Shown here: positions 13,794 through 60,562 of the stretch, one piece after another | How the letters are laid out: each line of letters begins with the position of its first letter | How positions within the stretch are numbered: the first letter of the stretch is position 1 | DNA from: Planctomycetota bacterium | GTDB lineage: Bacteria; Planctomycetota; OFTM77 | Assembly (NCBI GenBank): GCA_029260795.1 | Contig: JAJDCO010000125.1 | Location: 39,866-103,865 of the forward strand | Direction of reading: 5' to 3' | Length of the DNA: 64,000 bases | Made by a program: the position numbers and the translations under genes | Notes under the pieces: generated by a model | Seen by the model: only the letters and a program-made list of their open reading frames with translations | Databases searched by the model: none | Told to the model about the DNA's origin: nothing

Positions 13794-14249
13794 TTGGAGC
13801 GGCTCAGGCCGATTCGCTCCGACAGACTCTTGCGAGTGATCTTCCCCCGTGGTCGTGGACACCTTGGTTATGCCGCGAACACGGCGAAGAAGCCGCGCGC
13901 CCATCCTGCTCTGACCAAGCTCCGTCGATTGTCGGCAGCTTTCCCCGAGACCGCCGAGGTCGAGGCCTGGGGACATCCAACCTTTCGGGCCGGAAAGAAG
14001 ATCTTCGCCACCTTTGGTGAGCACCAGGGTGAGGCGACGATCGGTGTGAAGCAGACGCGAGCCGACCAGGGCCACCGGGTGCAGGAGGACGGCTTCTTCG
14101 TACCTCCCTATGTCGGTCAACACGGATGGGTCGGCATCTGCGTCGACCGTATCGATTGGTCGATGGTGACCGCGTTGGTCGAGCAAAGCTATCGACTGGT
14201 TGCCTTGAAGCGGATGATCAAGGCACTCGACTCGGACGAGACGCGGTGA
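13794..14249 (+). CDS. MmcQ/YjbR-family protein
   Basis: AFPETAEVEAWGHPTFRAGKKIFATF matches the YjbR N-terminal signature (compare E. coli YjbR AKPGAEQSV...W...IKV...FAM). The start is uncertain: there is no in-frame ATG near the conserved block, the 5' part overlaps the dispersed repeat, and it may use GTG at 13836 or TTG/CTG near 13900. Confidence 0.5.
   Translation: MERLRPIRSDRLLRVIFPRGRGHLGYAANTAKKPRAHPALTKLRRLSAAFPETAEVEAWGHPTFRAGKKIFATFGEHQGEATIGVKQTRADQGHRVQEDGFFVPPYVGQHGWVGICVDRIDWSMVTALVEQSYRLVALKRMIKALDSDETR
13834..13887. repeat. Copy A of a dispersed 54-bp repeat: GAGTGATCTTCCCCCGTGGTCGTGGACACCTTGGTTATGCCGCGAACACGGCGA
   Basis: 51 of 54 positions identical to 56692..56745. The flanks are unrelated and the boundaries are sharp. 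Confidence 0.6.
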
Positions 14250-14262
14250 CCGAACACCATCT

Positions 14263-15234
14263 CTACCAGAGATCTTCGAAGAATCGCTCGACCAGGCTGG
14301 CGAAGCTCGCCTCATCCAACGAGCCGATCGCGAGCTCTTTCCAGAGCGTGGCCTCGTCGATGTCCTCGTACACGCTTCGGTCGCCGAGGAAGATCTCGCC
14401 GCCCGTCTCGAAGTATCCCGCGCCCGTTGCCGTCAGCTCACCTCGATCACGACTCTTGGGGAAGACGTAGGCTTCGTCTCGATTGAGCAGAAGAGTGTGA
14501 GGAACGTCGTCCTCCTGCAACACGGAGACGAAGCGAGAGGCGGCGGCGAGTCGCTCCTTGGGATCGGGCTCCGAGATCACCAACGCCCTGAGCGGATAAT
14601 TGGTCAGCCGCTCGATCTTCGGATCCGCAGCTCGAAGCTCCTGCCGCGTCGCTCGCTGCACGGGCATTTCGGCGCCCGGGTAGTCGAAGGCATGAAAGTG
14701 GAGGTGGTTGATCGATGCCCAGGAGCCGAGGCTGTTGAAGCCGACCCAGAACGACGGCGAGGACGAGAGCTCGATGACGAGCTGTGCGTCTTTGAGAGCG
14801 GCCGGCGTGAGGTGCTGCGGTCGCCGAGCCGACGGGTCCGGAATCAAGATGCTGTGCCCCGGCAAGATCGGTGCATAGTTCACGTTGATTGTGATGGGAC
14901 GCGGCTCGACCTCGAGCTCGAAAAGCCTTTGCAGGGGGTGCGTCGCCTGGATCGTCAGGAAGTCGTTGTCACTCTCCTCGGAGCGAGCCAACACGGGAGT
15001 CTCGTCTCGCCAGGGGCGCTCGAGATCCTGCTCCTTCCGAGCACGCCCCGGGTTGAACTGCACGGCTAGGCGGCCGACCGAACGGCGCTCGAGGTGCTCG
15101 ATCCCGTATCGGATCACACCACGCTGCTCGCGATCCGCCCACAGCGAGTGGAGCTGCGCGTCGAATGCGAAGTCACCCAGCGGGCATTCCACCACCTCGT
15201 CCGCGTCTTGGAAGATCCGCACCACTCCGACCAC
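14263..15234 (-). CDS. HIT-superfamily GDP-L-galactose / GDP-D-glucose phosphorylase-like protein (VTC2/GDPGP1 homolog, DUF4922-like)
   Basis: HIT-like HLHFHA motif. 323 aa. Overall resemblance to the VTC2/GDPGP1 family. Confidence 0.45.
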   Translation of the reverse strand: MVGVVRIFQDADEVVECPLGDFAFDAQLHSLWADREQRGVIRYGIEHLERRSVGRLAVQFNPGRARKEQDLERPWRDETPVLARSEESDNDFLTIQATHPLQRLFELEVEPRPITINVNYAPILPGHSILIPDPSARRPQHLTPAALKDAQLVIELSSSPSFWVGFNSLGSWASINHLHFHAFDYPGAEMPVQRATRQELRAADPKIERLTNYPLRALVISEPDPKERLAAASRFVSVLQEDDVPHTLLLNRDEAYVFPKSRDRGELTATGAGYFETGGEIFLGDRSVYEDIDEATLWKELAIGSLDEASFASLVERFFEDLW

Positions 15235-21913: not shown

Positions 21914-21990
21914 TGGTGGGCGATGCTGGACTTGAACCAGCGACCTCTGCCGTGTGAAGGCAGCGCTCTAGCCAACTGAGCTAATCGCCC
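21914..21990 (-). tRNA. tRNA-Val (anticodon CAC), CCA encoded
   Basis: The reverse complement GGGCGATTAGCTCAGTTGGCTAGAGCGCTGCCTTCACACGGCAGAGGTCGCTGGTTCAAGTCCAGCATCGCCCACCA folds as a canonical cloverleaf, with anticodon loop TTCACAC. Confidence 0.85.
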
Positions 21991-44700: not shown

Positions 44701-46723
44701 AACGCTCATCGTGCTCGAGGAGCTCGGCCAGGCCCTCGTGAGCCTCGGTATCGGTGGGCGCATGCTCGAGGATGCGTCGGAGACATTGCTCAGCACCCGC
44801 CCGGTCTTCATGGCGCACGAAGGCCTCAGCCGCTGCGCGCCATTCGTCGAGTGCCGCGGGATCGGACGGGTCGGGTTGACGCTCGGCAAGACCGACGAAG
44901 GCTTCGGCGACATGGTCCCACCGCTCCGCGCGCTCGGCGGATCGGCGCCAGCGATCCCATGTGCTGCGATCGCCGGGTCGCAGCTCGGTCAATCGCATCC
45001 AAGCCTCTTCTGCGATGATCGGGTCCCCGATCTCCTGCTCCGCGACCCGTGCCAGCTCCTCATAGAGAGGCTCGGGATCGGACGGCCCGGCCGCGAGCTG
45101 GATCCGAAGTGTGGTGAGGACGCCCGACCAATCGCCACCCTGCGCATCATGGCGACGCAGCCAGCTTCCGGTGGCGGAGTCGGTCGGATCGTTCTCGAGG
45201 GCCACGCGGTAGTCGCTGGCGGCAGCTTCCTCGTCCCCTTGCTCGGTCAGGATCTCGGCACGCTCGCGGAGCAACGCCGCCGCCTGTCGGGGCGCCGCTT
45301 CGGAGGCCGCTCTCTGCAGCATCTCCAGCCAGGGACTCCAATCGTCCCGGCTCTGGCAGAGACCTCGAAGGCGCTCTCGCGCAGACTCATCCGTCGGCTC
45401 GGCTGCCAGCCGGGCCATCAGGATGTCATCCTCGATCGAGGTGGCCGATTCGGTGCCTTCACCCCATTCACTCAGCGCTTCGAGAAGATCCAAAGCGGCT
45501 CTCTGATCGCCCTGCGCCGCCGCCTTCCGAGCGACCTCCTCCAGTGAGCTCCTGCGGGCGTGAGGAATCCACTCCTGAGCCAACCCGGCGATCGCGAGTG
45601 TGGCGAGGCTCGACCAGAGACCACGCTCCTGCATGCCGGCGGACACCCGCAACCAGGCCGTGTTCTGATCGTCGGAGGACTCGATCGCGTTTCGCAATCG
45701 CTCGAGGCCGACCTCCGCTTGATCGAGTCGGTCGATGAGCAGAAGGCCCAGCTTTCGGCTCAGATCGAATTGTCGCTCCGGAGAGCGCGCATAGACTTCG
45801 AGAAGCTCGCGGTAGCTCCGCTGCAGAGTGGAGTAGTCCTCTCGCGAAGCACCGCACGTCTCCAAGAGCTCGAGGGCGTCGGGAACCTGGGGATCGAGCT
45901 GCAGCGCTTGTCGAACGTCCGAGCGCGCACCGTCTGCGTTCTCGCCCTGCTCTCGCCGGCAGCGTGCTCGTCGAACGAGAAGCTCCGCTCGTCGGGCCGG
46001 AATATCTTCGGTCCGAATGCGCTCCGTGAGAAACGCCTCGAGGTCGGGCCATCGCTCTTCGGCGACCAGATCCGACTCGACCTTGCTTCGAACACCCGAC
46101 TCCAAAGGCGAGCCACTGGGGGTCGTGCGCGTGTTGCCGGCCGGCCCTCGCGACATGAGATCACGCAGCCGAGCAACGGCGGTCGCATCCGAAGACTTCA
46201 GGCACAACTTTTCGAGGAGCTCCGCATCCGAGGCCTCGGTCCCTCCCACTGCCAAGAGGTCGAACCCGATGGCGATCGCGCGATCCAGCTCGTTCAGGTG
46301 ATCACCATACAGCGAGACCAGCTCGCGTGCGGCCGGGACGGCCCGTCGAACACCCGCCTCTTCGACCTCGGTGGCGAGAAGATCCGCCAGGTCCGTCCAA
46401 CGCTCGTCCTCTCGGAAGAGATCCTTGAGCCCGGCGCGAGCCTCTTCGCAGGTCGATGGCTCCTCCAGGAGCGCGCGATACTGATCCTGGGCTCGATCGA
46501 GGCGGTGGAGCTTTGAGTGGAAGAGCTGGGCGAGCCGAAGTCGAATCGAGGCACGCTCCTTCGCGTCGCTCTCGAACAACAGACGCTTCTCGTACAGCTT
46601 GGCGAGCTGCGTCCAGTCCTTGCGGTGATGGAGCTCGTTCTCTCGATGGCGAAACGCGTTCGAGGCATCGCCGCGAGCCTCGGAGCGGCCATCTCGACCG
46701 GATCTCGTCATGTGTTGTTCCAC
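38783..46723 (-). CDS. Giant TPR-repeat protein (2646 aa) with a non-TPR C-terminal domain of ~330 aa
   Basis: One continuous ORF. TPR/Sel1-like heptad patterns (W..LA.LY......A...Y..AL) run throughout. There are two TPR super-blocks separated by an acidic linker near aa 1700. The C-terminal 330 aa (…LHPKPDAAIGAAAILLQLVPTLGELFPPEAIPKRVVRECDNSPLL…) are unrecognised. Confidence 0.7.
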   Translation of the reverse strand: MEQHMTRSGRDGRSEARGDASNAFRHRENELHHRKDWTQLAKLYEKRLLFESDAKERASIRLRLAQLFHSKLHRLDRAQDQYRALLEEPSTCEEARAGLKDLFREDERWTDLADLLATEVEEAGVRRAVPAARELVSLYGDHLNELDRAIAIGFDLLAVGGTEASDAELLEKLCLKSSDATAVARLRDLMSRGPAGNTRTTPSGSPLESGVRSKVESDLVAEERWPDLEAFLTERIRTEDIPARRAELLVRRARCRREQGENADGARSDVRQALQLDPQVPDALELLETCGASREDYSTLQRSYRELLEVYARSPERQFDLSRKLGLLLIDRLDQAEVGLERLRNAIESSDDQNTAWLRVSAGMQERGLWSSLATLAIAGLAQEWIPHARRSSLEEVARKAAAQGDQRAALDLLEALSEWGEGTESATSIEDDILMARLAAEPTDESARERLRGLCQSRDDWSPWLEMLQRAASEAAPRQAAALLRERAEILTEQGDEEAAASDYRVALENDPTDSATGSWLRRHDAQGGDWSGVLTTLRIQLAAGPSDPEPLYEELARVAEQEIGDPIIAEEAWMRLTELRPGDRSTWDRWRRSAERAERWDHVAEAFVGLAERQPDPSDPAALDEWRAAAEAFVRHEDRAGAEQCLRRILEHAPTDTEAHEGLAELLEHDERFEDLVAHLEHGVQCLANGEHRTKTVRRLAQALTTLQRADEALAMWQLALKSDPSDSEALEKIGELAEQLGDPSASLLVLEARLSEVEEDSTRAELLRRKGELLLGPLNRAEDGIACLTDAAPHDSRALKQLARLQAERRDWPRVLELYEVELARADDEITRAAIHQKMAILWESELLDNQRAIEHLEKAWSEREGDIEILEGLERLYRASGDWERAADVVSRRLEREEDPRRSPAAALELAQIHRDHLGDPEAALQLLEAARNRWPDQLTILRELRRGYRQAVRWKECAQTLERELEATRDPVARRELLGERAQLFEGPLRDPAAAASTYQNILADLPQDRFALRGLVRVARRIEDWKRLSAGLTHLAQLEEDPERSARYARELGELFSRNRDQRELAEHWFRKCLQTEPADPIAMTSLSAILREGQRWEELVTLLAENEPKEASPLRTTWRLARARALERLKRGNEAGRVYESILESEPDRANIRDRAIELANRHDRIVDARRLLEEGLAGEPAESVGARWKARLSVLLLESGDLELANGLLREAAAGTVLAADLLERHAFAQIEASRWAAAAEVRELQLARAFRPAERHSILLSLGEIYSDRLDLPEEALRCFEEARALDPVDRHGLDLLAHLYERCERWTELATLDQRRTALSHSRAEEVDVIVSRARLLEERLGDAAAAISAYERALDLDPSSNLILTALARLYREHARRIDLVRVLEHWLQSDDPACDRFTVYRELARLWSEDLDRPSHAIECLRCARDLNPDSRETLQDLADLLGRAGRSTEQLGVLLAALERFPESERGEIRQRIEELLLNPLRPGGERARDMLERLLAQWPDCLVGRRKLAASCLRDELDDRAETVLEGLVRDDDGESRRAGHALLLARLLQDRLHRPHDAIPWLERAADLGSRRATSSLELAYRRWGYWPELTQRQEARLSDLEPEERVALGREIASVHERYLSSPIEAARVLRRVLDEDLPADQRQELVGDLERLYAQVGCSEELADLQRLQSDAETVDVERLLRSAEELSSSLNDVDRAAHCLNRVLELEPGRTAALDALIDLLRRARRWEELAATLERRIEQIDDPKEAAGVRAELGLVLFGPLSRRDEAWELLQQAVADGAQTVDVLDASIALATDREEWEPVAEMLRLRIAKTSAGPDRARWIARRARLLADELDRRDEALKALREAWKHDPACAEARTLLQRLTDETDRLAVGPKNGAVEETQVAARPESSEQPSEGSDSKSTPRDRARELEDVRHELCERRSELVASDLVRLLARRAKLEEETGHPETALLTWLELLEHHPEHIDGLETVAGLYRRGAHSADALPYLDRLVGQLARRPSEVERLLSAQRCRAELFEQEGDWQAAARAYREALEKEPDAADLLESLASLYVRNGRWIDAEHHLSRLLSVAQGDEQLRTTRFLLGQVLLKGLDRPEDAEVYFREVRDDPRLGTSARLGLATALEARERWDEALEVLAELVESSTTPRQRTTVRLRRARLLRDRCHRPKQAYEVLLEAAGENPSSEALLEEATKTLRGMGDEEGLANLWRSYLDHLSPAKRRLRLDLSLELARLYAERLSRPDEAAEIYRQALADSEEDARVTLEFAAVLSRTDAGSREAVRLFRNLLHDDPTRSECLNALETLLQGQGDQEGVLMVQGCRDVLGLLTPRERTRYRASLRPWSAAPFARTGRFPASLHPKPDAAIGAAAILLQLVPTLGELFPPEAIPKRVVRECDNSPLLKRLDEIAQAFRLGSVQLHVLSEEPRSVRLLCDEPWIFGASERLVLGTASAETIFHAARALAGPLGGFGPLLRIGPDRAADALRALAHIDRKASVGGRRSDRVTALSQRLRRILPTGVRRSLAALSSTVDEVRVAAQVRAFYARLDEAATRYALWLCGDPSAGLGAVADVLELPSDGGTDAWQESAAGTAALRFVLSNLYLSLRRQAGVALPRLVRDGKSTELISTGGA

Positions 46724-50737: not shown

Positions 50738-53320
50738 TTGAAGATCAAGCAGACCCCCGAAGACTTTCGGGTCATCGAGCGATCCGAGCCCCCGGTCTCC
50801 AAGACCGGATCCGGACCATACTACCTCTACGTGCTGCGGAAGAAGAAGCTCACCACGCCCGAAGCGATCCGTGAGCTGGCCCGCGCAAGTGACCTCCGGA
50901 CCGATGCCTTCGCCCACGCCGGCCTCAAGGATCGGCAAGGGGTCACAGAGCAGCTCATCTCGGTCACGGGCAAGCCGATCCGGTACGAGTCCCACCAGAT
51001 TCGCCTCAAATACCTCGGCCGATCCCGCCGGGCGGTCGAGAAAACGGACAGTCAGGGCAATCGCTTCGAGATCACACTGCGGCATCTGCGCAGGAGCGAA
51101 GCCGTGGATCTGGTCGAGGCCGCTGAGGAGGTCCGGAGCATCGGAGTCCCCAACTACTTCGACAGCCAGCGCTTCGGATGCATCCGGCACGGCCAGGGCT
51201 TCATCGCCCGACACGTCATCCAAGGCGACTTCGAAGAGGCCTTGCGGCGAATGATCGCCTCGAAGTCGCGCTTCGAGACCAAGGACGCCCAATTCAAGGG
51301 CTACCTGCGAAAGCACTGGGGAAAGTGGCGAGATCTCGCCGGACGACATCGACGCTCACTCTACAGCCGGCTCTTCAGCTACCTCGGAGACCATCCGAGC
51401 GACTTTCGCGGGGCGCTCAAGCTCGTGCCACTCGGCACCAAGCTCATTCATCTGTGTGCTTATCAGAGCTTCCTGTGGAACGAGATGCTTCGCCGTTACC
51501 TCGAGGCCGAGGGCGAATCCGGACCCGAAGTCCCCAAGGCAGCCCCCGTCGAAGCACCGAAGCCCGTGCAGGACGAAGGTCCGAAGGAGACGCTCCTCGC
51601 CGGTCCCCCTCTCGAGGACGACACACCCGACGAGAGTCCGGCCGGTTCGGAGCAGGCAGCCACGAAGCCGCCAGAGATCGAAGCCACGAAGCCCGAGCCG
51701 GCTCCTGAAAGGTGGTTGGGCACGCAGTACGAATGCGGTTGGCTGGTCTTTCCGAACAACCTGACTCGGAAGCGAGCTCTCGAGCTGCGAGAGCTCAAGC
51801 TGCCCCTGCCCGACGCACACACGCGACCGAGTGATCCGCGCATCGCGCGTGCCCTGGGGCATGCCTTGAATCACGAGGGCCTCGACCTTCGGGACCTCGA
51901 CATCCAGGACATCCCGGGATTCCTCTTCAAGGAAGAGCCGCGGCCCGCGATGCTCGTTCCCGAAGAGCTCACCGTCCGCGAGCCGGAGCCAGATGATCTG
52001 AATCGGGGGTTCTTCAAGGTCCGCTTGTCCTTCTCGCTCCCGCGTGGCGCCTACGGCTCCCTGATCCTCAAGCGTCTCCTCGCCGAGCCGGCCCCGGCCA
52101 ATCCTAAAGCGCGCGAACCCCGCGGTGCTCCCAGGGCTCAAGCCTTGCCCCCGAAGCGATGGCAGTCCGAGAGAACCCACAGCTCCAGCCGCGAGGGGCG
52201 GTCCGATGCTCGGGGAGAGCGAAGAGAGGGATACCTGGGCCCGCGCCAACGAGAGGCTTCACAAGGAATGTCGGCAGGCAGCGATCGCCGCCGAGGTCCC
52301 AGAAAACCCCACGAAGCAGCGGCGGTACACGGTGGGCGGTGGCCTGCAAACAAAGACACATTCGATCGGAACCGCCCTTCCAACAGCGACCGATCCGGGG
52401 ACGAGGACAACTTCGAAGGCTTCGAGGCTGAGGTGCGGCGCCGACCCGAGCCTGGTTGGAAGCAGCGGCGAGAAAGCAGCACTCCGAGCGGAGGCCCTGA
52501 TCGCAAACCCTCAGGGGGACACTCGGGACGCGACCGAGACCGTCGGGCAGGCGGAGATGACCACCGGAAGCCTCTGGGAGCGAGAGGAGGCCGACGCAGC
52601 GCGAGCACCGGTTGGAAGCCGCGCGATCCGACGGCGAGCAGAGATCGCAAGCCGGGCCAGGGCTACGCACGAAACACCAGCGGCGGAGGACAATCAACCG
52701 GTCGCCCGGGCGGAAGCTACGCCGGCAGTGGTCGGTCCGCCGGCAGTGGACACGCATCTGGCGGTAGGTCTGGCGGAAGCTACTCCGGCGGTGGTCGACC
52801 TGGCGGCGGTGGACATTCAGCAGGTCGACCGGGCGGAAGCTACTCCGGCGGCGGTCGACCCAGCGGCGGTGGACATTCGGCTGGTCGACCGGGCGGGAGC
52901 TACTCCGGCGGTGGTCGACCGGGCGGCGGTGGACATTCGGCTGGTCGACCGGGCGGAAGCTACTCCGGCGGTGGTCGACCGGGCGGCGGTGGACATTCGG
53001 CTGGTCGACCGGGCGGAAGCTACTCCGACGGTGGTGGAACCGGAGGTGGCAAGCCTTGGGGATCCGGCCGACCGCGCGGCGCAAATCACCCAGAGCGGGG
53101 CCGCCCCAGCGGGGGTGGTCGACCGGGAAATGCTTACTCGGCCGGCGGACGTCCCGGCGGCGGATACTCCGGCGGTGGCAAGCCGGGTGGTGCTGGCCGG
53201 CCGGCTGGAGGTCGACCCGGCGGGAACCGAGGATCTCGCCCGGCAGCCGGTCCGAATCGACGCTCGTCCCGTCCTGAGGGAGAGCGCTCCCGCGAGGCGG
53301 AGCGTGGTGGCGACTCCTGA
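50738..53320 (+). CDS. truD: tRNA pseudouridine(13) synthase TruD fused to a ~420-aa Gly/Arg/Ser-rich (GAR/RGG-like) C-terminal tail. Also carries a ~70-aa Pro/Glu-rich insertion.
   Basis: TruD signatures LKDRQGVTEQ and GVPNYFDSQRFG. The catalytic domain runs to about aa 440. The tail is low-complexity with tandem 20-aa units GGGRPGGGGHSAGRPGGSYS. Confidence 0.8.
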   Translation: MKIKQTPEDFRVIERSEPPVSKTGSGPYYLYVLRKKKLTTPEAIRELARASDLRTDAFAHAGLKDRQGVTEQLISVTGKPIRYESHQIRLKYLGRSRRAVEKTDSQGNRFEITLRHLRRSEAVDLVEAAEEVRSIGVPNYFDSQRFGCIRHGQGFIARHVIQGDFEEALRRMIASKSRFETKDAQFKGYLRKHWGKWRDLAGRHRRSLYSRLFSYLGDHPSDFRGALKLVPLGTKLIHLCAYQSFLWNEMLRRYLEAEGESGPEVPKAAPVEAPKPVQDEGPKETLLAGPPLEDDTPDESPAGSEQAATKPPEIEATKPEPAPERWLGTQYECGWLVFPNNLTRKRALELRELKLPLPDAHTRPSDPRIARALGHALNHEGLDLRDLDIQDIPGFLFKEEPRPAMLVPEELTVREPEPDDLNRGFFKVRLSFSLPRGAYGSLILKRLLAEPAPANPKAREPRGAPRAQALPPKRWQSERTHSSSREGRSDARGERREGYLGPRQREASQGMSAGSDRRRGPRKPHEAAAVHGGRWPANKDTFDRNRPSNSDRSGDEDNFEGFEAEVRRRPEPGWKQRRESSTPSGGPDRKPSGGHSGRDRDRRAGGDDHRKPLGARGGRRSASTGWKPRDPTASRDRKPGQGYARNTSGGGQSTGRPGGSYAGSGRSAGSGHASGGRSGGSYSGGGRPGGGGHSAGRPGGSYSGGGRPSGGGHSAGRPGGSYSGGGRPGGGGHSAGRPGGSYSGGGRPGGGGHSAGRPGGSYSDGGGTGGGKPWGSGRPRGANHPERGRPSGGGRPGNAYSAGGRPGGGYSGGGKPGGAGRPAGGRPGGNRGSRPAAGPNRRSSRPEGERSREAERGGDS
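52741..53040 (+). repeat. Five copies of a 60-bp in-frame tandem repeat inside the truD 3' region (degenerate copies extend upstream to ~52700)
   Basis: The unit gggcggcggtggacattcggctggtcgaccgggcggaagctactccggcggtggtcgacc lines up exactly with the 60-nt sequence lines; copies 4 and 5 are near-identical. Confidence 0.85.
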
Positions 53321-53366
53321 CGGCATTGTTCTCTCGGTGCCCTTCGGAGCACTTGCTGAAAGTCGA

Positions 53367-53395
53367 TTGACCCTCTCGCCCCCTCCGCGTATAAG
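53367..53395 (+). promoter_or_regulatory. Strong sigma70-like promoter candidate for rplC (TTGACC, 17 nt, TATAAG), giving a ~140-nt leader
   Basis: Near-consensus hexamers with optimal spacing. The leader contains the hairpin ACCGCTC-gag-GAGCGGT. Confidence 0.45.
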
Positions 53396-53539
53396 GGCGG
53401 GTCTTATCGTTCCGCATGGAGGCGGTCTTGCCCGTCTCCCGCTGCGCCTACCCGATGAATTCCCTTCACCGGCGCAAGCACGGATTGCCTTCCGACCGCT
53501 CGAGGAGCGGTGTCCTGATTCCGTCACGAAGGAACTCCC

Positions 53540-54196
53540 ATGTCCCTAGGACTGCTCGGCCGCAAACAGGGTATGACCCAGATCTTCGATGAGACTGGCG
53601 TGATCATCCCGGTCACGATCATCCAAGCCGGCCCCTGCCCCATCGTTCAGATCAAGAAGCACGAGACCGACGGCTACACGGCGCTCCAAGTCGCCTTCGA
53701 GCCGCGGCGCGCGAACATCACCAAGAAGCCCTTGGTCGGCCACTACAAGAAGGCGGGCGTGGACACCCACCGCGTTCTGCGCGAGATGCGCTTGGACGAC
53801 GATGAAGCACTCAAGGCCCACGAGAACGGCGAGCCGCTGACCGTCGACATCTTTCAAGTCGGCCAGTACGTCGACGTGACCGGCACGTCCAAGGGCCACG
53901 GCTTCACGGGTGTCATCGTGCGCCATGGCTTCCACGGAATGCGCGCGACGCACGGTACGCACGAGTTCTTCCGGCACGGTGGTTCGATCGGTATGCACTC
54001 GTGGCCGTCCCGCGTCTTCAAGGGCACCAAGATGCCCGGGCAGCACGGCAACGCTCGCGTGACGACGCAGAACCTCAAGGTCGTCAAGATCGACGCGGAG
54101 AAGAATCTGATCCTCATCAAGGGTGCCGTACCGGGCACGCGCAACGGCCTGCTGGAAATACATCCGGCCCTCAAGAAGCCGGCACTGAAGGCCTGA
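53540..54196 (+). CDS. rplC: 50S ribosomal protein L3
   Basis: Aligns along its length with E. coli L3: GMTQIF, VDVTGTSKGHGFTGV, SIGMHSWPSRVFKGTKMPGQHGN, LIKGAVPG. Confidence 0.9.
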   Translation: MSLGLLGRKQGMTQIFDETGVIIPVTIIQAGPCPIVQIKKHETDGYTALQVAFEPRRANITKKPLVGHYKKAGVDTHRVLREMRLDDDEALKAHENGEPLTVDIFQVGQYVDVTGTSKGHGFTGVIVRHGFHGMRATHGTHEFFRHGGSIGMHSWPSRVFKGTKMPGQHGNARVTTQNLKVVKIDAEKNLILIKGAVPGTRNGLLEIHPALKKPALKA

Positions 54197-54226
54197 TCAG
54201 ACTCGACGACACTCGACAAGCACGCG

Positions 54227-54264
54227 GAGGGAGCCTGGCGACGGGCTCCCTCGTTTCGTTTCGG
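54227..54264 (+). terminator. Rho-independent terminator candidate after rplC
   Basis: GAGGGAGCC-tggcgacg-GGCTCCCTC followed by GTTTCGTTTCGG. It ends 13 nt before the rlmE ATG. Confidence 0.45.
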
Positions 54265-54276
54265 AACCCCCACGCC

Positions 54277-54870
54277 ATGGCCTACGAGCTCGACGATGGA
54301 TACCGCCGGCAGGCTCGCCGCGAAGGCTACGCCGCGCGGGCGGTGTACAAGCTCGCCGAGATCCATCAGCGTTACCGCATTCTGACGCGGGGAGGCTCCG
54401 TGCTCGACCTCGGTTGTGCGCCGGGCTCCTGGCTTCAAAAGGCTCGTGAGATCGTCGGTCCGAGCGGCCAGGTCGTCGGCATCGACCTCGTGGCCGTCGA
54501 CGCCGACGCCTGCCCGGGCGCGCGACTCCATCAGGGCGACTTCTTCTCGGATGACGGGCGCACGTTCTTGGCAACGCACGGGCCCTACGAGGCCGTGTTG
54601 AGCGACATGGCCCCGAAGACGTCGGGAATCAAGTCGGCCGACCAGGCACGCTCCCTCGAGCTGTGTGAAGGTGCGTGGCTCGTCGCACAGCAGCATCTGA
54701 AACCGGGCGGTAGCTTCGTGTGCAAGATCTTCCAAGGGGCCGGATTCCCCGAGCTCCTCAAGGACGTTCGGCGGCGCTTTCGCAAGACCCACGGCTTCAA
54801 GCCGAAGAGCTCGCGCTCAGCCAGCATGGAAACCTACATCGTCGGCTTGGGGTATCAGCCCGAGAGCTGA
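54277..54870 (+). CDS. rlmE: 23S rRNA (uridine2552-2'-O)-methyltransferase RlmE (FtsJ)
   Basis: SAM motif VLDLGCAPGSW. K-D-K-E catalytic residues including SDMAPK. 197 aa. Confidence 0.85.
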   Translation: MAYELDDGYRRQARREGYAARAVYKLAEIHQRYRILTRGGSVLDLGCAPGSWLQKAREIVGPSGQVVGIDLVAVDADACPGARLHQGDFFSDDGRTFLATHGPYEAVLSDMAPKTSGIKSADQARSLELCEGAWLVAQQHLKPGGSFVCKIFQGAGFPELLKDVRRRFRKTHGFKPKSSRSASMETYIVGLGYQPES

Positions 54871-54879
54871 GCTCGGAAC

Positions 54880-56622
54880 GTGAGGTTCCCGTTGTCGGTG
54901 GCCGGCCGTCCGAATACGATCGCGAAACGGGACGAGGATTCGAATCGGTCCAGGAGCGAAGTGGTGCGGCTCTTCAAGAAGATCCTGTTGTCGGTCCTCT
55001 TTACGGTCGGCTTCTTCGCGGCGGTCGAAACCGCCTTGTTCTTCGTCGGCGTCGGCGAGAGCTGGAGCCCGTTCGAGCAAGAGCGCGACTCGGAAGGCTC
55101 GTGGGTCGCCAAGCTCGCCCCTCGAGGCGCCTTTCACTTCCACTCCGAACGCTTCCCCGTCGACAAGCCGAGCGATACCTTTCGCGTATTCACCTTCGGC
55201 GGGTCGTCGACATACGGTTACCCGTTCAGCCGCGCACATTCCCGCAGCTCGTTCTCCGGCATGCTCCGCGTCCTGCTGACCGAGCGCTATCCCCAGCGAC
55301 GCATCGAGGTCATCAACTGCGGCTCGCCGGGCATGGACAGCCGCGCCAGCCTCGAGATCTTGCACGCGGCGTTGGACTACTCGCCCGACGCGCTCGTCGT
55401 GTACTCGGGTCACAACGAGTTCCTCCCCCAGAACGTCACGCTCACTCGCCGGGCACTCGAGCAGCCCCTCTGGAATGGCGTGCTCGAGTTTGCGGGCTCG
55501 CTGCGCTTGTTCGGGTTGCTCCGCTCCGCCATCACGCCGAAGCTGCCCCAGCGCGAAGAGGTCACGTTCAACGACCTCGTCCAATACGATCAAATGATCG
55601 GTCCGCCACTTTGCGGTCCCGACGAGACGAAGGCCGTCCTCACCGGATACCGACAGAACCTTACCGCCATGGCCGAAGCGGCGACCGTGCCGCTCTTCTT
55701 CTGCCTGCCCGCCTCCAACCTCGCCGACATGGAGCCGAACGTCTCCACGCACAGCACCGATCTCGATCCTCGCCTCATGATCCGCTTCGACGAGGCCTTC
55801 AGCGAAGGGCGTGCGAAGGCGGCTCAGGAAGACTGGAGCAGCGCGATCGAGGCCTTCAAGAAGGCCAATCGGGCCGACCCGAATGTCGCCGAGTCGCACT
55901 ACCAGCTCGGTCGCGCTCTCGAGGCGGCGGGCGAGTTCTCTCGTGCCCGGGCCGAGTACTTGCGCGCGCGCGACCTCGATGGCCGCCCGCTGCGAGCCAC
56001 GGCGGCCATCCTCGAGATCGTCGAGACCGTCGCGCGCGAGCAATCCCGCGTCACCCGGATCGACACGATGTCCGGCCTGACCGCCGCGGCGCCGAACGGC
56101 TTGATCGGCAACGGACAGATCATCGACAACGTCCACCCGACTCTCGAAGGCGACTACGTGCTCGCGCGGCAGATCGCCGACGCGCTCGGAGCCGCCGGTC
56201 TACCGGCTGGCGCTCGTTCGGAGCGTCCCGATCCCGACTTCGCCGAGTGCCTGCGCAAGACGGGGTCGCGGCCCGAGCTCGTGACGGAAGGGCTCGCCGA
56301 GGCTGGCCTCTACCTGCTGCGATTCGTACCGATGCGCTACGACCGGGCGCGTCGAGCCGCCCGCACCGAGGAGGTCTTCCAGCAGGTGCTGGCCGAGAAG
56401 CCCGACAACTTTCGTGCGCTGCACGGCCTCGCCACGCTCTACCTGATGGTCGGTCGCACGGACGAGGCCAAGACGATCCTCGACAGCACCCTCGAGAAGC
56501 AGCCCGCCTCAGCGGCGCTGCTCGTGCACTTCGCCAAGCTCTCGCCCTACTTGACTCGCCTCTACCAAGAAGCGGGGCTCGACCTCGAAGCGCTGAAGGC
56601 GAAGATCCCCAAGACTCAGTGA
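54880..56622 (+). CDS. Membrane-anchored SGNH/GDSL-family hydrolase or acyltransferase with C-terminal TPR region (paralog 2)
   Basis: FRVFTFGGSSTYGYPF, VYSGHNEF, IDNVHPTLEGDY. C-terminal TPR. Paralog of 2905..4461. Confidence 0.6.
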   Translation: MRFPLSVAGRPNTIAKRDEDSNRSRSEVVRLFKKILLSVLFTVGFFAAVETALFFVGVGESWSPFEQERDSEGSWVAKLAPRGAFHFHSERFPVDKPSDTFRVFTFGGSSTYGYPFSRAHSRSSFSGMLRVLLTERYPQRRIEVINCGSPGMDSRASLEILHAALDYSPDALVVYSGHNEFLPQNVTLTRRALEQPLWNGVLEFAGSLRLFGLLRSAITPKLPQREEVTFNDLVQYDQMIGPPLCGPDETKAVLTGYRQNLTAMAEAATVPLFFCLPASNLADMEPNVSTHSTDLDPRLMIRFDEAFSEGRAKAAQEDWSSAIEAFKKANRADPNVAESHYQLGRALEAAGEFSRARAEYLRARDLDGRPLRATAAILEIVETVAREQSRVTRIDTMSGLTAAAPNGLIGNGQIIDNVHPTLEGDYVLARQIADALGAAGLPAGARSERPDPDFAECLRKTGSRPELVTEGLAEAGLYLLRFVPMRYDRARRAARTEEVFQQVLAEKPDNFRALHGLATLYLMVGRTDEAKTILDSTLEKQPASAALLVHFAKLSPYLTRLYQEAGLDLEALKAKIPKTQ

Positions 56623-56691
56623 AGCCCGAGGCGCCGACGCTCCCGGACGTCGACGCCCTCCAAAGCGTCCTCAGTGATCGTCGGAGGCGAT

Positions 56692-56745
56692 GAGTGATCT
56701 TCCCCCGTTCTCGTGGACACCTTGGTCATGCCGCGAACACGGCGA
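56692..56745. repeat. Copy B of the dispersed 54-bp repeat (GAGTGATCTTCCCCCGTTCTCGTGGACACCTTGGTCATGCCGCGAACACGGCGA)
   Basis: Three mismatches to copy A. It contains the stop codon of the truncated beta-lactamase-family ORF. Confidence 0.6.
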
Positions 56746-57022
56746 TCGTCATCGGCTTCGTCACCGAGGCGATGCTGAAGCGGGTGCTCGGTGCATTCGG
56801 CACACCGAGCTCGTAGCTCGCCATGCCGTAGGACCTCTCGAAGAGCACCTCGTTGCCTTTTGCGAGAAGCACGGTGCCGGAGAGATGGCCCGCGTCAGCG
56901 TATGGCTTCAGGTAGGCATGGATTCTCTCGGCAACATCCGGCGACGCGTCTTCGGCCTCTTGAGCGAGGATCGGTAGGGACGGGAGCAGAAGCGCAACCA
57001 GAGCGATCAGGCATCGAGTCAT
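56726..57022 (-). pseudogene. Truncated beta-lactamase / PBP4-family serine hydrolase N-terminal fragment (98 aa of an expected ~350-400)
   Basis: Signal peptide MTRCLIALVALLLPSLPILA, then GTVLLAKGNEVLFERSYGMASYELGVPNAPSTRFSIASVTKPMT (the S-x-x-K active-site helix). The frame terminates inside the repeat, and no continuation exists downstream in any frame. Confidence 0.5.
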
Positions 57023-57146
57023 GAGAGCCTCCCGAGGAGGGGGAAGTCGGACCGTGCGCGTGGGTACTGCGATACGGTACGCGGTTCCGACTCGGTGTGT
57101 GAGAAGGACACCGGTGCGGGGAGCCCGAACGACGGCACGAGCTCGA

Positions 57147-58331
57147 TCAGGATTTCCGGTCCGCCGAAGCCGCGCGATTCTTGGTGGCTCGACGCGGGGG
57201 CGGCTCGACACTCGACAGCTCGGCCCGACGGATCTTGAGCTTGAGCGACTGCTCGATCCGCTCGAGGCGCCAGGTGTCCTTGGGCTCGACCAGTGTCGTG
57301 GCAGTGCCTTTCTTGCCGGCGCGCCCCGTCCGGCCGATGCGATGCGTGTACTCGCGACCGCCCTGGGGCAGGTCGAAATTGATGACGTGGTCGAGCCCTT
57401 CGACATCCAGACCGCGGGCTGCGACATCGGTCGCGATGACCACGCGAACGGATCCGCTCCGTAGCTGTCTCAGCGTGTGGTTGCGTGCACCTTGAGTCTT
57501 GTCACCATGCAGCACGCCGCAGTGCAAGTTGTGATGCGAGAGCTCACGAGCCAAGTAGTCGGCCGTCCTCTTGGTCGCGACGAAGACCAGCGTTCGACTT
57601 CGCTTGCCCTTCTCGAGGAGCGCGGCCAGCAACGCGATCTTGTGGTCTCGAGTCTGGGCGAGGTAGGCCACCAGCGAGATGTCCTGATGTCGCTCGCGCG
57701 GGCCGCCGGTTTCGATGCTGTCGGGATCGCGCAAGATGTCGTCAGCGATCCTCTTCACTCGGCCCCCGAGGGTCGCCGAGAAGAGCAAGGTCTGTCGCTC
57801 TTCGGGTAGAAACGAGGCGATCTTCTTCACGTCGTCGATGAAGCCGAGGTCCAGCATGCGATCCGCTTCGTCGAGGATGAACACCTCGAGGCGCTGAAAC
57901 CTCACGCGGCCTTTCTCGAGATGATCCAGCAGGCGACCGGGCGTCGCGACGACGAGGTCGTGCTTCTCTTCGAGGCGTCGCACTTGATCCTCGATCGAAG
58001 CTCCACCGACGAGCGTCACGGCTCGCAGCTTCATGAACTTGCCCATGTCCAAGAAGACGCCCGCGACCTGCTGTGCAAGCTCCCGTGTCGGCGTCAGCAC
58101 GAGCAGGCGAGGGCCCCGCACGGCGACGCGGGCCGGCTGCAGCAAGCGCTGCAAGGAGGGCACCGCGAAGGCGACGGTCTTGCCCGATCCCGTCTGTGCC
58201 GCGGCCATCAAGTCACGCCCCTTGAGAATCACCGGAATCGCTTGCGCCTGAATCGGTGTGGGCTTCTCGAACCCTTGCCGCCGAATGCCGCCAATGAGCC
58301 GAGGGTCGAGCGAGAAGTCTTTGAACGACAA
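57147..58331 (-). CDS. DEAD-box ATP-dependent RNA helicase (RhlE-like)
   Basis: Q-motif, AQTGSGKT, DEAD, SAT, HRIGRTGRAG. Basic C-terminal tail. The likely start is TTG at 58331 (M-SFKDFSLDP); the in-frame ATG at 58526 adds 65 unlikely residues. Confidence 0.85.
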   Translation of the reverse strand: MSFKDFSLDPRLIGGIRRQGFEKPTPIQAQAIPVILKGRDLMAAAQTGSGKTVAFAVPSLQRLLQPARVAVRGPRLLVLTPTRELAQQVAGVFLDMGKFMKLRAVTLVGGASIEDQVRRLEEKHDLVVATPGRLLDHLEKGRVRFQRLEVFILDEADRMLDLGFIDDVKKIASFLPEERQTLLFSATLGGRVKRIADDILRDPDSIETGGPRERHQDISLVAYLAQTRDHKIALLAALLEKGKRSRTLVFVATKRTADYLARELSHHNLHCGVLHGDKTQGARNHTLRQLRSGSVRVVIATDVAARGLDVEGLDHVINFDLPQGGREYTHRIGRTGRAGKKGTATTLVEPKDTWRLERIEQSLKLKIRRAELSSVEPPPRRATKNRAASADRKS

Positions 58332-58762
58332 GCGAAGCTCCGAAGCGGGAAGACGGAGGACGATCGGCCACACGAATCGAATCAAGCAGATTAGCGAGAT
58401 CGCCAACGGAACGCCAGAATCGGCACCGCAAAGCCAGCGGCACTCAAGACCACCCAAAGGAACCACGCCTGAAGCTGGCGGCACGAGGGCCACCAGGGGA
58501 GAACCTTCCGCCGCGCCGCGACCCAAGCGACTCCCTCAAACCACCCGCCCCGCCGCACGTACCCAAGACAATCACTCTATCCGCAGCGCCATGCGGCCCG
58601 CTACCGGAGGTTTGGCTCGAGGCACGATCACGTTGCCGATGCGCTCGGTCCGCTGGCTCCGCCGAGCCACTCTCCGAACTTGGTACGCTCCCCTCCGCTT
58701 GATAGCTTGGTGGCCTCACGGGAAAGAGGTTGAAGTGCCACACCGAGTAGGAGAGCGCACCG

Positions 58763-59671
58763 ATGTCCGCAACGTATGAGGAGAGGGCACCCCAACCGTC
58801 TCGGCAGCCCCGCCGGGGCTTCGAGATCGGCTCCGTGCTGTCACGCGGCTTCTCGATCTGGGGACGCAATCTGATTCCGTTCCTTCTGCTGACGGCTCTG
58901 CTCCAGATTCCCACCTACGCGTGGAACTGGACGCAGACAGGCTCCGTGCTCGTCGCGCCGAACTTCCGCGAACAGTTCATGGAGCAGCAGCGGGTCGATG
59001 ACGCCACCACGGACTCGGGGGCGAGACTCTCTGATCAGCGCAGCCCCTGGGACCTGATGATGAGGGCCTTGGTGGGAGGATTGATCAGCTTGGTCACCAC
59101 TCAGCTCCTGACGGCGACGCTCGTGTATGGTGTCTTCGGGGAGCTTCGCAACAGGCGAGCCTCCATCGGCGAGTGCTTGAGCCAGGGCTTTGCTCGCCTC
59201 TTTCCGGCGCTCGGAGTCGCGATGCTGACGGGCCTGGTTCTCATCGCCCTCGCGCTTCCATTTGGCGCCCTCATGGTGATGATCCCCCTCTTCAGCATCG
59301 TTCTCCTTCCGGTGCTCTTGGTCTTCCTCGCCCTCGTGTACTGCGGCCTCTTCGTCGCCGTGCCGGCAGCGGTCGTCGAGCGACCGGGAGTCTTTGCAGC
59401 CCTAAGTCGCAGCTGGAACCTCACACGAGGCAATCGAGCCCGCATCTTCGGCCTGCTGTTCCTCCTCTACATCCTGATGTTCCTCGCCGGCGCCGTCGTG
59501 GGATTTGCGACCGGAGCGCTCGGGAATCTCGACAGGCTTTCGTGGATCGCATCGTTGTTCAGCCTCTTCACCTTCTCACTGTTCGCGGTGATCACGGCCG
59601 TCACCTACCACGACTTGCGCGTTGCCAAGGACGGCATCGACTCGGAGGAGCTCGCCTCGATCTTCGATTGA
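58763..59671 (+). CDS. Polytopic membrane protein of unknown function (DUF975/GPDPase-membrane-domain-like)
   Basis: Six or seven hydrophobic helices and no catalytic motifs. Confidence 0.4.
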   Translation: MSATYEERAPQPSRQPRRGFEIGSVLSRGFSIWGRNLIPFLLLTALLQIPTYAWNWTQTGSVLVAPNFREQFMEQQRVDDATTDSGARLSDQRSPWDLMMRALVGGLISLVTTQLLTATLVYGVFGELRNRRASIGECLSQGFARLFPALGVAMLTGLVLIALALPFGALMVMIPLFSIVLLPVLLVFLALVYCGLFVAVPAAVVERPGVFAALSRSWNLTRGNRARIFGLLFLLYILMFLAGAVVGFATGALGNLDRLSWIASLFSLFTFSLFAVITAVTYHDLRVAKDGIDSEELASIFD

Positions 59672-59677
59672 GGTGGG

Positions 59678-60562
59678 TCACCGGCGCGGGTGCAGTCGAC
59701 CTGTCTTCTTGTGCTCGCGCCGCTCCCCCATCAGCATCTGCGCCTCGAGCTGGGCGCGCTGCGCCTCGTAGAAGTCGGTCAGGAAGTCGAGAGGATCGAC
59801 GTCGAGGTGCGTTGGATCCCACCCGATCTTGCTCTGGATCTTCGCGCAGACGGTTTCCAGCGCTTTTCGATCTTGTCGTCGATTGCGGAGCACGTCCTCG
59901 AGGATCTGCAGCTCGTAGACTCCGTACACGCCGAGCTGAGCTGCGCTGAATCGATACCGTGGATCCGCGACTGGCGACCGCCTCCGACTTGCCGCGCCCT
60001 GCGCCAGCGCCACAGGAAGAGGCGACTTCACCACGAGCGTTCCGGCCACGAGATCTCCCACCCGCATGCGGTCCCGATTCAGCCAAGGCATGACCGCGAA
60101 GACGACGAGCCAAGCCACTCCGCACACGCGCAGCCATCCAGCCGCTCCCGGCCAAAGCGCGTCCGGAGCGGACACGACGACCAGCGGGCCGAGGATCTCG
60201 ACCTGCCGCAGGAAGTTCCGAGCGAAGATCGCTTCTCCCGACAGGGCTCCGCCTCGCCGATCGATGACGCGGAGTCCCAAGGCCCGCTTGCCGAGTGTCC
60301 GGCCCTGACCGCGAATCTCGAAGACGATGAAGTAGAAGTTCGTTATCAGGAACAGCGCCAAGATCGCGAAGGCCGTCCCGAGGGACTCCGAGCCCGCGAG
60401 ACCGCCCAGAAGGGCGGCGACGAGGCAGACGACGCCCACGACGACAACGTCGATCAGGAACGCCAGCAAGCGTTCACCCGTCGCCGAGATCTCGAAAGTC
60501 AGCGGCACTCCTTCGGGAGGCACGATCCGCCGAACTCGCCGCGAGACCGTGAAGGTGCTCAT
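59678..60562 (-). CDS. RDD-family membrane protein
   Basis: RDD-type architecture: ...GQGRTLGKRALGLRVIDRRG... between TM helices. ATG at 60562 overlaps the upstream stop in ATGA. Confidence 0.65.
   Translation of the reverse strand: MSTFTVSRRVRRIVPPEGVPLTFEISATGERLLAFLIDVVVVGVVCLVAALLGGLAGSESLGTAFAILALFLITNFYFIVFEIRGQGRTLGKRALGLRVIDRRGGALSGEAIFARNFLRQVEILGPLVVVSAPDALWPGAAGWLRVCGVAWLVVFAVMPWLNRDRMRVGDLVAGTLVVKSPLPVALAQGAASRRRSPVADPRYRFSAAQLGVYGVYELQILEDVLRNRRQDRKALETVCAKIQSKIGWDPTHLDVDPLDFLTDFYEAQRAQLEAQMLMGERREHKKTGRLHPRR

What the first reader, a model, noticed from the sequence alone, without database searches (positions are those of the whole stretch)
56692..57022. Dispersed 54-bp repeat sits exactly at the truncation point of a beta-lactamase-family gene
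A 98-aa ORF encodes only the signal peptide and the first ~80 aa of a class-C beta-lactamase/PBP-like serine hydrolase, including the SxxK helix (FSIASVTKPMT). It then runs into a 54-bp element and stops inside it. The rest of the gene is absent. A 94%-identical copy of the same element lies 43 kb away at 13834-13887, at the 5' end of the YjbR-like gene. This looks like the footprint of a recombination, deletion or small mobile-element event, for example a MITE or REP-like unit or an integron-like site. The adjacent SGNH-TPR paralog 2 (54880-56622) may have been brought in by the same event.
Basis: seen in the sequence. Interest (0 to 1): 0.55.

Follow-up and report, generated by a model that had tools for sequence, protein, structure and literature searches.

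The report
Truncated beta-lactamase gene ending in a repeat
A beta-lactamase-family gene in an uncultured bacterium was cut down to its first fifth, and the break lies inside a 54-base sequence that also forms the start of an unrelated gene 43 kb away; it is a real but fairly ordinary scar of a deletion next to a short, low-copy hairpin-type repeat.

Summary
Window 56692-56745 and 13834-13887 are 51/54 identical, in direct orientation, with sharp borders, and are the only two copies in the window. The minus-strand ORF 57022-56726 (98 aa) is only the signal peptide plus the SxxK region of a 420-450-aa serine hydrolase. Its last 20 nt, including the stop, lie in the repeat. The rest of the gene is absent from the window and from 5.5 kb further left.

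Copy A lies in frame at the 5' end of yjbR. It supplies the annotated GTG start and 17 codons that about 120 relatives lack. With 5 more bases it forms a 51-nt imperfect palindrome. Copy B lacks the outer stem. An independent k=31 assembly breaks on both sides inside copy A, in the way expected if a third, 40-nt-identical sequence exists.

bla homology runs about 8 nt into copy B, which suggests a microhomology junction.

Best reading (about 0.45): a low-copy, REP-like palindromic repeat, with a microhomology deletion from its 3' arm into bla. Main rival (about 0.27): a one-off templated copy of the yjbR leader.

MITE, integron attC, island att sites and co-import of the SGNH-TPR gene are not supported. 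Interest is low to moderate.

The parts
56692..56745 (+). Copy B of the 54-nt repeat. It lies 69 nt downstream of the SGNH-TPR2 stop and abuts the truncated bla. It lacks the last 3-5 nt of the palindrome seen in copy A, and one stem pair is broken (positions 18-19 are TC).
   Evidence: DNA fold -7.3 kcal/mol, z -0.4
13834..13892 (+). Copy A (13834-13887) plus 5 flanking bases (AGAAG). Repeat positions 7-57 form a 51-nt imperfect palindrome (TCTTC...GAAGA outer stem). It lies in frame in the 5' end of yjbR, 88 nt downstream of the stop of the preceding + strand gene.
   Evidence: DNA fold -14.4 kcal/mol, 0/200 shuffles as stable, but only the 4.5th percentile of all 59-nt windows of this DNA
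56726..57022 (-). The bla-family remnant (98 aa): signal peptide, then the N-terminal ~70 aa of the mature domain with the S-x-x-K motif (SVTK). The stop TGA at 56726-56728 is inside the repeat.
56738..56746 (.). Probable junction microhomology. The repeat's last 8 nt (CACGGCGA) plus T encode I-A-V on the minus strand, matching the ...TKPMT-I-A-L/V of the best full-length homologs.
   Evidence: tblastn alignments run to 56738 or 56732; the chance estimate of ~1% is my inference
56673..56692 (.). A 20-nt patchwork directly left of copy B (AGTGATCGTCGGAGGCGATG). It is made of three short blocks (AGTGATC, GATCGTC, GAGGCGATG) that recur in the same order within the next 82 nt, i.e. the repeat start, the repeat-end/bla junction, and the bla interior.
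   Evidence: 19/20 nt covered; only 6 loci in the window reach >=18/20
13836..14249 (+). The yjbR/mmcQ-family gene as annotated at NCBI (137 aa, GTG start inside copy A). The first 17 codons are encoded by the repeat. Relatives are ~120 aa and start about where the repeat ends.
13853..13892 (+). A 40-nt segment inferred to be shared exactly with a third sequence in run SRR15505515. The left Logan contig ends at 13882 and the right one at 13863.
   Evidence: inference from k=31 graph behaviour
54964..56622 (+). The SGNH/GDSL hydrolase-TPR gene (paralog 2), convergent with the bla remnant. This is context only, not part of the event.

Best explanation
The 54-mer is most likely a member of a low-copy family of short (~57-59 nt) imperfect-palindrome repeats, REP-like in form.

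Copy A is the complete version. It sits in frame in the 5' end of yjbR, where it now supplies the GTG start and 17-19 extra codons.

Copy B lay in the usual REP position, in the spacer between two convergent genes (SGNH-TPR2 and a full-length bla). A single RecA-independent, microhomology-mediated deletion then joined the 3' arm of the hairpin (at CACGGCGA) to the identical 8 nt in bla codons 93-95. The mechanism would be replication slippage or break repair, which hairpins are known to stimulate. This removed the last few bases of the repeat and the 3' ~80% of bla (about 1 kb or more).

The remnant ORF then reads into the repeat and meets a TGA after 6 codons. It is a dead gene fragment.

Shown: the repeat, the truncation, the in-frame position in yjbR and the palindrome. 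Inferred: family membership beyond two copies, the microhomology, and the order of events.
For: - The repeat and the truncation are real.
- Copy A plus AGAAG folds as a 19-bp interrupted stem. No shuffle out of 200 folds as well. The outer stem needs 3-5 nt beyond the A/B homology, which copy B lacks.
- In an independent k=31 assembly, both contigs flanking copy A end inside it, at 13882 and 13863, with a 20-nt overlap. That is what a 40-nt node (repeat positions 20-59) shared with another locus produces. Copy B cannot be that locus, because the longest exact A/B stretch is 18 nt.
- The other contig ends examined in that run fall in a tRNA, a tandem repeat and the DEAD motif, so ends mark shared sequence.
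- Both the graph break and the palindrome put the true right end at position ~57-59. Copy B is therefore truncated at the bla junction.
- bla homology (TKPMT-IAL in the best homologs) continues through the repeat's last 8 nt.
- Both copies lie 69-88 nt downstream of the stop of a + strand gene, in the same orientation.
- yjbR here lacks the ATG/GTG start and the adjacent TAnnnT box that relatives have. It carries a 17-aa extension that is exactly the repeat.
Against: - Only two copies are visible in ~69.5 kb. The third is an inference from contig ends in one run.
- Against the real genomic background the hairpin is unremarkable: 4.5% of 59-nt windows are at least as stable. RNA folds of the 54-mer alone are not significant.
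- The three A/B differences are not compensatory.
- No transposase or RAYT is in view.
- There is no inverted partner (REPIN).
- No related sequence was found in GTDB genomes, JGI metagenomes, IMG/VR, plasmids or phages, nor in 1.3 Mb of relatives' loci.
- The 20-nt patchwork left of copy B is not explained by a single simple deletion.
Confidence: 0.45

Rival explanations
1. A one-off segmental copy. The 54 nt are the native 5' leader and start region of yjbR. During one complex repair or replication event (serial template switching, of the MMBIR or alt-end-joining type) that deleted most of bla, the polymerase copied ~54 nt from the yjbR leader 43 kb away. It left this as filler at the junction and switched back at the CACGGCGA microhomology. 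No mobile or repeated family is involved.
For: - Copy A covers exactly the place where relatives have their promoter-proximal box and start codon.
- The B junction is complex. A 20-nt patchwork of three locally templated blocks sits directly left of copy B, and there is probable microhomology at the right junction.
- The three mismatches could come from error-prone synthesis.
- Only two copies are seen.
Against: - The similarity of the 54-mer to the upstream DNA of 81 relatives' yjbR genes is not significant, so nativeness is unproven.
- It does not explain why a k=31 graph breaks on both sides of copy A with a 40-nt shared node.
- It does not explain why the segment is an extended palindrome.
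- A 54-nt templated insertion from a site 43 kb away has, to my knowledge, little precedent in bacteria. The literature found is eukaryotic.
Confidence: 0.27
2. A remnant of a duplicated yjbR paralog. A second yjbR copy once lay downstream of SGNH-TPR2, convergent with bla. A later deletion fused its codon ~18 to bla codon ~93.
For: The repeat begins 2 nt before the annotated GTG of yjbR and continues in its reading frame. A deletion between convergent genes would leave exactly this geometry.
Against: - It needs two events.
- The duplication boundary would have to coincide with the gene start.
- No other trace of a second yjbR was seen.
- It does not explain the graph break at copy A or the palindrome.
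Confidence: 0.1
3. A shared functional cis-element (an operator, small RNA or hairpin terminator) kept similar by selection at two loci. Its coincidence with the bla break would then be chance.
For: Both copies lie 69-88 nt downstream of a + strand gene in the same orientation, and copy A can form a stable hairpin.
Against: - There is no Rfam match.
- There is no promoter- or terminator-like site and no T-tract.
- The hairpin is degraded in copy B.
- 94% identity over 54 nt with sharp borders points to recent common descent rather than convergence.
- The bla frame runs straight into it.
Confidence: 0.07
4. attL/attR of a 43-kb integrated island, or an assembly artefact.
For: These are direct repeats 42.9 kb apart. 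54 nt equals k-1 for k=55 assemblers.
Against: - The interval carries hisS, tgt, rplC, rlmE, a tRNA, ECF sigma and anti-sigma factors, a sulfatase and a 2646-aa TPR protein, with no integrase or mobility gene among the ORFs scanned.
- The copies differ at 3 positions, so they share no k-mer longer than 18 nt.
- Independent k=31 contigs from two runs cross copy B at 100% identity.
Confidence: 0.03

Closest known systems
REP / REPIN elements (repetitive extragenic palindromes mobilised by RAYT transposases; PMC3116915, PMC3337134)
   Same: It is a short unit with a non-palindromic 5' tail followed by an imperfect palindrome. It lies in spacers downstream of genes, including between convergent genes. 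Copies are near-identical and dispersed. There are no terminal inverted repeats or target duplications.
   Different: REPs occur in hundreds of copies (618, 241 and 208 in P. fluorescens SBW25), mostly as inverted doublets, with a RAYT gene. Here 2 copies are seen (a third inferred), there are no doublets, and no RAYT is in view. One copy lies inside a coding region.
Rickettsia palindromic elements (RPEs), which insert in frame into protein-coding genes (Ogata et al. 2000, Science; cited from my own knowledge, not checked here)
   Same: Copy A is a palindromic repeat whose length is a multiple of three. It sits inside an ORF that stays open and adds residues to an otherwise conserved protein.
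   Different: RPEs are 100-150 bp and numerous. This unit is 54-59 nt, lies at the extreme N-terminus and provides the start codon.
Microhomology-mediated deletion or template switching (replication slippage, MMEJ, MMBIR; review PMC12426944)
   Same: The gene is truncated at a junction with a probable 8-nt microhomology. A hairpin-forming sequence lies at the breakpoint, and a patchwork of short locally templated blocks sits beside it.
   Different: The events were not observed. The microhomology is inferred from protein homology. Long templated filler is documented mainly in eukaryotes.
MITEs (e.g. Correia, ERIC, RUP)
   Same: It is a small, non-coding dispersed repeat that can alter gene ends.
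   Different: There are no terminal inverted repeats and no target-site duplication, and it is half the usual size or less.

Membership tests
REP/REPIN | Imperfect palindromic core with flanking tails | tested here: inconclusive
   Copy A plus 5 nt folds at -14.4 kcal/mol, z -3.95 vs shuffles, but is only the 4.5th percentile of genomic 59-nt windows. Copy B is not significant.
REP/REPIN | Tens to hundreds of copies, mostly extragenic | tested here: inconclusive
   There are 2 copies in 69.5 kb, and a third is inferred from contig ends. The rest of the genome could not be searched.
REP/REPIN | Inverted doublets (REPIN) forming a long hairpin | tested here: not met
   nhmmer on both strands finds no inverted partner near either copy.
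REP/REPIN | Cognate RAYT (IS200/IS605-like Y1 transposase) in the genome | not testable with these tools
   Only ~70 kb of the genome is accessible. No transposase domain was found among the ~35 ORFs scanned.
MITE | Terminal inverted repeats | tested here: not met
   The ends are GAGTGAT... and ...ACGGCGA, which are not complementary. The palindrome is internal.
MITE | Target-site duplication flanking each copy | tested here: not met
   The flanks are ..CTTGC / AGAAG.. at copy A and ..GCGAT / TCGTC.. at copy B. Neither copy is bounded by a clean target-site duplication and the two share no flank motif; the GGCGAT at copy B overlaps the repeat's own end.
Integron attC | R''(RYYYAAC)...R'(GTTRRRY) core sites and a nearby integron integrase | tested here: not met
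   Neither core site is present at the ends, by inspection. No integrase was found among the scanned ORFs.
Integrative element att sites | Direct repeats bounding a segment with integrase or mobility genes, or atypical composition | tested here: not met
   The interval holds housekeeping genes (hisS, tgt, rplC, rlmE, tRNA) and no integrase. Where profiled, around copy B (52000-60000), composition shows no anomaly.
Serine beta-lactamase/PBP-like hydrolase (PF00144) | S-x-x-K active-site motif | tested here: met
   SVTK is at residues 85-88, aligned to the homologs' motif.
Serine beta-lactamase/PBP-like hydrolase (PF00144) | Complete domain (~330 profile positions) including the Y-x-N and K-T/S-G motifs | tested here: not met
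   Only profile positions 5-64 of 329 are present. The remainder is absent from the window and from L172. It is a gene remnant, not a functional member.
YjbR/MmcQ (PF04237) | Full YjbR domain | tested here: met
   Profile positions 2-88 of 88, E=3.7e-15, and 52-69% identity over the full alignment to the 15 relatives aligned; up to 73% over the best local segment.

The most novel reading that the evidence does not exclude
The repeat is the first glimpse of a new family of ~57-59-nt palindromic, non-autonomous mobile elements in a sparsely sampled PVC/Planctomycetota-like lineage. They would insert in frame at gene 5' ends, donating a GTG start and an N-terminal peptide, as in yjbR. Their hairpins would seed microhomology deletions that erode neighbouring genes, as in bla.
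Probability: 0.2. Interest if true: 0.45.

Novelty: new member of a known kind. Interest (0 to 1): 0.25.

Why it matters
As it stands, this is a clear example of how a gene dies. A serine-hydrolase gene was reduced to a 98-codon stub at a junction with a short hairpin-forming repeat. The same repeat has been absorbed into the start of another gene.

If the repeat proves to be a multi-copy family, it would extend REP- or RPE-like elements to an uncultured PVC-type lineage. It would also give a concrete case of such an element donating a start codon.

For annotation there are two practical points. The 98-aa 'beta-lactamase' should be flagged as a pseudogene fragment. The yjbR start (GTG inside the repeat) is uncertain.

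Tried and rejected
**Searches for more copies of the repeat**
1. Exact-pattern scans for the core of the repeat gave 0 hits in GTDB genomes, JGI metagenomes and IMG/VR. blastn of the 59-mer against plasmids and phages gave no match. The source organism is simply not in these collections.
2. A six-frame peptide query built from both copies was meant to catch other copies inside called ORFs. It returned nothing. The positive control (P0003, which carries the peptide) was also missed, so the result is uninformative.

**Orthologous loci and relatives**
3. For the orthologous locus, the neighbouring DEAD-box helicase has no relative above 50% identity in GTDB and shows no synteny. The best bla homolog among 1.8 billion representatives is 60% identical. 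The ancestral state of the SGNH-TPR2 / bla interval could therefore not be recovered.
4. To test whether the repeat is native to yjbR, I collected 81 relatives' upstream regions. By eye there are resemblances (TATCCTGCCCCG, GGTTATGC.CGCG), but local-alignment scores are not above background. nhmmer finds nothing in 1.3 Mb of relatives' loci.

**Known RNA and regulatory signals**
5. Rfam gave no relevant match at gathering or E-value thresholds (the only gathering-level hit is a tRNA at 21917-21990). Sigma-70 promoter and intrinsic-terminator scans gave nothing.

**Hypotheses rejected**
6. The island att-site, integron attC, MITE and assembly-artefact readings are rejected, as set out in the membership tests.
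7. A weak bla-like tblastn hit at window 1221-1448 lies inside a Peptidase_M23 gene, so it is chance.

**Other**
8. A look-up of the partial yjbR product found the same contig break only in run SRR15505515.
9. A literature search for the run accessions found nothing.

Full report
**Observation**

The 54-mer GAGTGATCTTCCCCCGT(TC/GG)TCGTGGACACCTTGGT(C/T)ATGCCGCGAACACGGCGA occurs at 56692-56745 (copy B) and 13834-13887 (copy A). Both copies are on the + strand and are 51/54 identical. No match was expected in shuffles. Identity stops abruptly at both borders. It is the only high-identity dispersed repeat in the window. A profile search with filters off finds no further or degenerate copy in the window, nor in 5.5 kb beyond its left end.

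The minus-strand ORF 57022..56726 encodes 98 aa. These comprise a signal peptide and the first ~70 residues of a PF00144 serine hydrolase, including SVTK. The match covers Pfam profile positions 5-64 of 329 and residues 19-82 of the 392-aa EstB structure. An exhaustive HMMER search gives full-length homologs of 420-450 aa at 50-60% identity. tblastn with ten of them finds no trace of residues ~95-430 in the window or in L172. The last 20 nt of the ORF, stop included, lie in copy B. Logan k=31 contigs from two sequencing runs cross the junction at 100% identity, so it is not an artefact of the assembly the window came from.

**Copy A**

The NCBI gene call for yjbR (P0003, 137 aa) starts at GTG 13836, the third base of the repeat. 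The listed relatives are mostly 110-140 aa (typically about 120). They begin M-x-R/K... about 5-11 codons before the invariant HP-x-LTKLRR helix. In the window, the nearest canonical in-frame start upstream of that helix is the GTG inside the repeat. An ACG sits where relatives have ATG.

In 81 relatives' loci, the start codon is typically preceded at 6-8 nt by a TAnnnT box, which is a leaderless-type arrangement. The window lacks this arrangement. The repeat therefore adds 17 codons in frame that no relative has.

I saw by-eye resemblances between the 54-mer and relatives' upstream DNA. They are not above background, so I cannot show that the 54 nt are native to yjbR.

**Anatomy of the repeat**

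The 54-mer alone does not fold better than shuffles. With the next 5 bases of copy A (AGAAG), positions 7-57 form a 19-bp interrupted stem at -14.4 kcal/mol with DNA parameters. None of 200 shuffles is as stable. Against all 59-nt windows of this GC-rich DNA it is only at the 4.5th percentile, so this is suggestive rather than compelling. Copy B cannot form the outer stem, because its flank is TCGTC. It also loses a pair at positions 18-19.

**A third copy, by inference**

In run SRR15505515, a 38.7-kb contig coming from the left ends at window 13882. An 8.1-kb contig coming from the right ends at 13863. Both are 100% identical to the window. In a compacted k=31 graph, a 20-nt overlap of two contig ends is what a 40-nt node (13853-13892, repeat positions 20-59) with extra neighbours produces.

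Copy B cannot supply those neighbours, because the longest exact stretch shared by A and B is 18 nt. The other contig ends examined in that run lie in a tRNA gene, a 60-nt tandem repeat and the DEAD motif of the helicase. Ends therefore mark shared sequence rather than random coverage gaps.

The inferred shared node ends at position 59. This is the same place where the palindrome says the unit ends, and 5 nt beyond the A/B homology. Copy B is therefore best seen as truncated on its right side.

**The junction**

The best full-length homologs read ...ASVTKPMT-I-A-L..., and the window reads ...TKPMT-I-A-V-F-A-A*. The I-A-V is encoded by the repeat's last 8 nt plus one flanking base, and several tblastn alignments run to 56738 or 56732. 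My rough estimate is that an unrelated 8-mer would do this about 1% of the time. I therefore read CACGGCGA as microhomology shared by the repeat and bla at the joint.

Directly left of copy B lies a 20-nt patchwork (56673-56692). It consists of AGTGATC, GATCGTC and GAGGCGATG, which recur in order within the next 82 nt. Coverage is 19/20 nt, a level (>=18/20) reached at only 6 loci in the window. This points to local slippage or template switching at the same site.

**Surroundings**

The 43 kb between the copies encode, among others:
- hisS, tgt, rplC, rlmE and a tRNA;
- a sulfatase, a patatin-like protein and a Band-7 protein;
- ECF sigma and anti-sigma factors;
- a 2646-aa TPR protein.

None of the ORFs scanned is an integrase or transposase. 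The two SGNH-TPR paralogs are 30% identical, and composition around copy B is flat. The repeats are therefore not island boundaries. Nothing suggests that SGNH-TPR2 arrived with the event.

**Mechanism**

The most economical account, at about 0.45, has three steps:
1. A short palindromic repeat sat in the spacer between the convergent SGNH-TPR2 and bla genes. This is a typical REP position.
2. One microhomology-mediated deletion ran from the 3' arm of the hairpin to bla codons 93-95. It removed the end of the repeat and the 3' four-fifths of bla.
3. The stub now terminates at a TGA inside the repeat.

Elsewhere, another copy sits in frame in yjbR and provides its start codon.

The main rival, at about 0.27, is that the 54 nt are the native yjbR leader. 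On that view they were copied once, as templated filler, during a complex template-switching repair that deleted bla. This fits the patchwork and the two visible copies. It does not explain the graph break at copy A or the palindrome.

Lesser rivals are a decayed yjbR paralog plus a deletion (0.10), a shared cis-regulatory element (0.07), and att sites or an assembly artefact (0.03).

**Comparison with known kinds**

In form and placement the unit resembles REP sequences (PMC3116915, PMC3337134). Copy A resembles in-frame Rickettsia palindromic elements (cited from my own knowledge). Membership in REP/REPIN is not established:
- copy number is inconclusive;
- inverted doublets are not present;
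- a RAYT gene is not testable with ~70 kb of the genome.

The defining features of MITEs, integron attC sites and island att sites were tested and not met. The bla ORF has the SxxK motif but fails the full-domain test, so it is a pseudogene fragment.

**Limits**

The source genome is absent from the DNA collections that can be scanned. The nearest relatives are distant: yjbR at most 73%, bla at most 60%, helicase at most 50% identity. Genome-wide copy number and the ancestral locus could therefore not be determined. Names on the nearest yjbR hits suggest a Planctomycetota-like or PVC lineage.

**Verdict**

This is a real, well-defined scar of gene decay at a short hairpin repeat. It is of low to moderate interest unless the repeat proves to be a multi-copy family.

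Noticed in passing
window 56673-56692: A 20-nt patchwork (AGTGATCGTCGGAGGCGATG) lies directly left of copy B. It is built from three blocks that recur in the same order in the next 82 nt. This looks like local template switching or slippage. Only 6 loci in the window score as high by the same test.
   Followed up: yes
window 13853-13892; L170, L171, L172: Both Logan k=31 contigs of run SRR15505515 that flank copy A end inside it (at 13882 and 13863). This implies that a 40-nt stretch is shared exactly with another sequence in the sample. As a caveat, the window's own path through copy A rests on the original assembler having resolved that 40-nt repeat.
   Followed up: partly
L004, L008, L089-L168 (yjbR relatives), upstream of the start codon: Many yjbR/mmcQ genes of relatives have a TAnnnT box (TATCCT, TACAAT, TAGCGT, TACCGT...) 6-8 nt upstream of their ATG/GTG. 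This suggests leaderless transcripts. The window's gene lacks this arrangement.
   Followed up: partly
window 38783-46723 (-): A 2646-aa TPR-repeat protein. The opposite strand carries several long ORFs (up to 1032 aa) with no Pfam match, so these are probably shadow ORFs of the GC-rich giant gene.
   Followed up: partly
window 52640-53210, inside ORF 52104-53417 (-): An array of 60-63-nt tandem repeats (up to 98% identical), GC up to 73%, inside a 437-aa ORF with no Pfam match. A Logan contig ends in it.
   Followed up: no
window 53540-54870: The ribosomal protein L3 gene (rplC) is followed by rlmE (FtsJ methyltransferase) and then the SGNH-TPR gene, not by rplD and the rest of an S10 operon.
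   Followed up: no
L003 1159-1551 (P0002): A second bla-family ORF from another metagenome (42% identical) also stops early, at 130 aa and 7 nt before the contig end. This is probably a sequencing error or contig-end effect rather than a conserved short form.
   Followed up: partly
window 14263-15234 (-): The gene next to yjbR had no hit in my Pfam scan. It carries GDPGP1_N/GDPGP1_C (GDP-hexose phosphorylase-like) hits in the precomputed table, so the two Pfam resources disagree.
   Followed up: no
window 54468-54510, inside rlmE: The most stable 59-nt hairpin of the whole window (-25 kcal/mol, DNA parameters, minus strand) lies inside the rlmE coding region, in GTCGAC-rich sequence. It is probably a by-product of codon repeats.
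   Followed up: no
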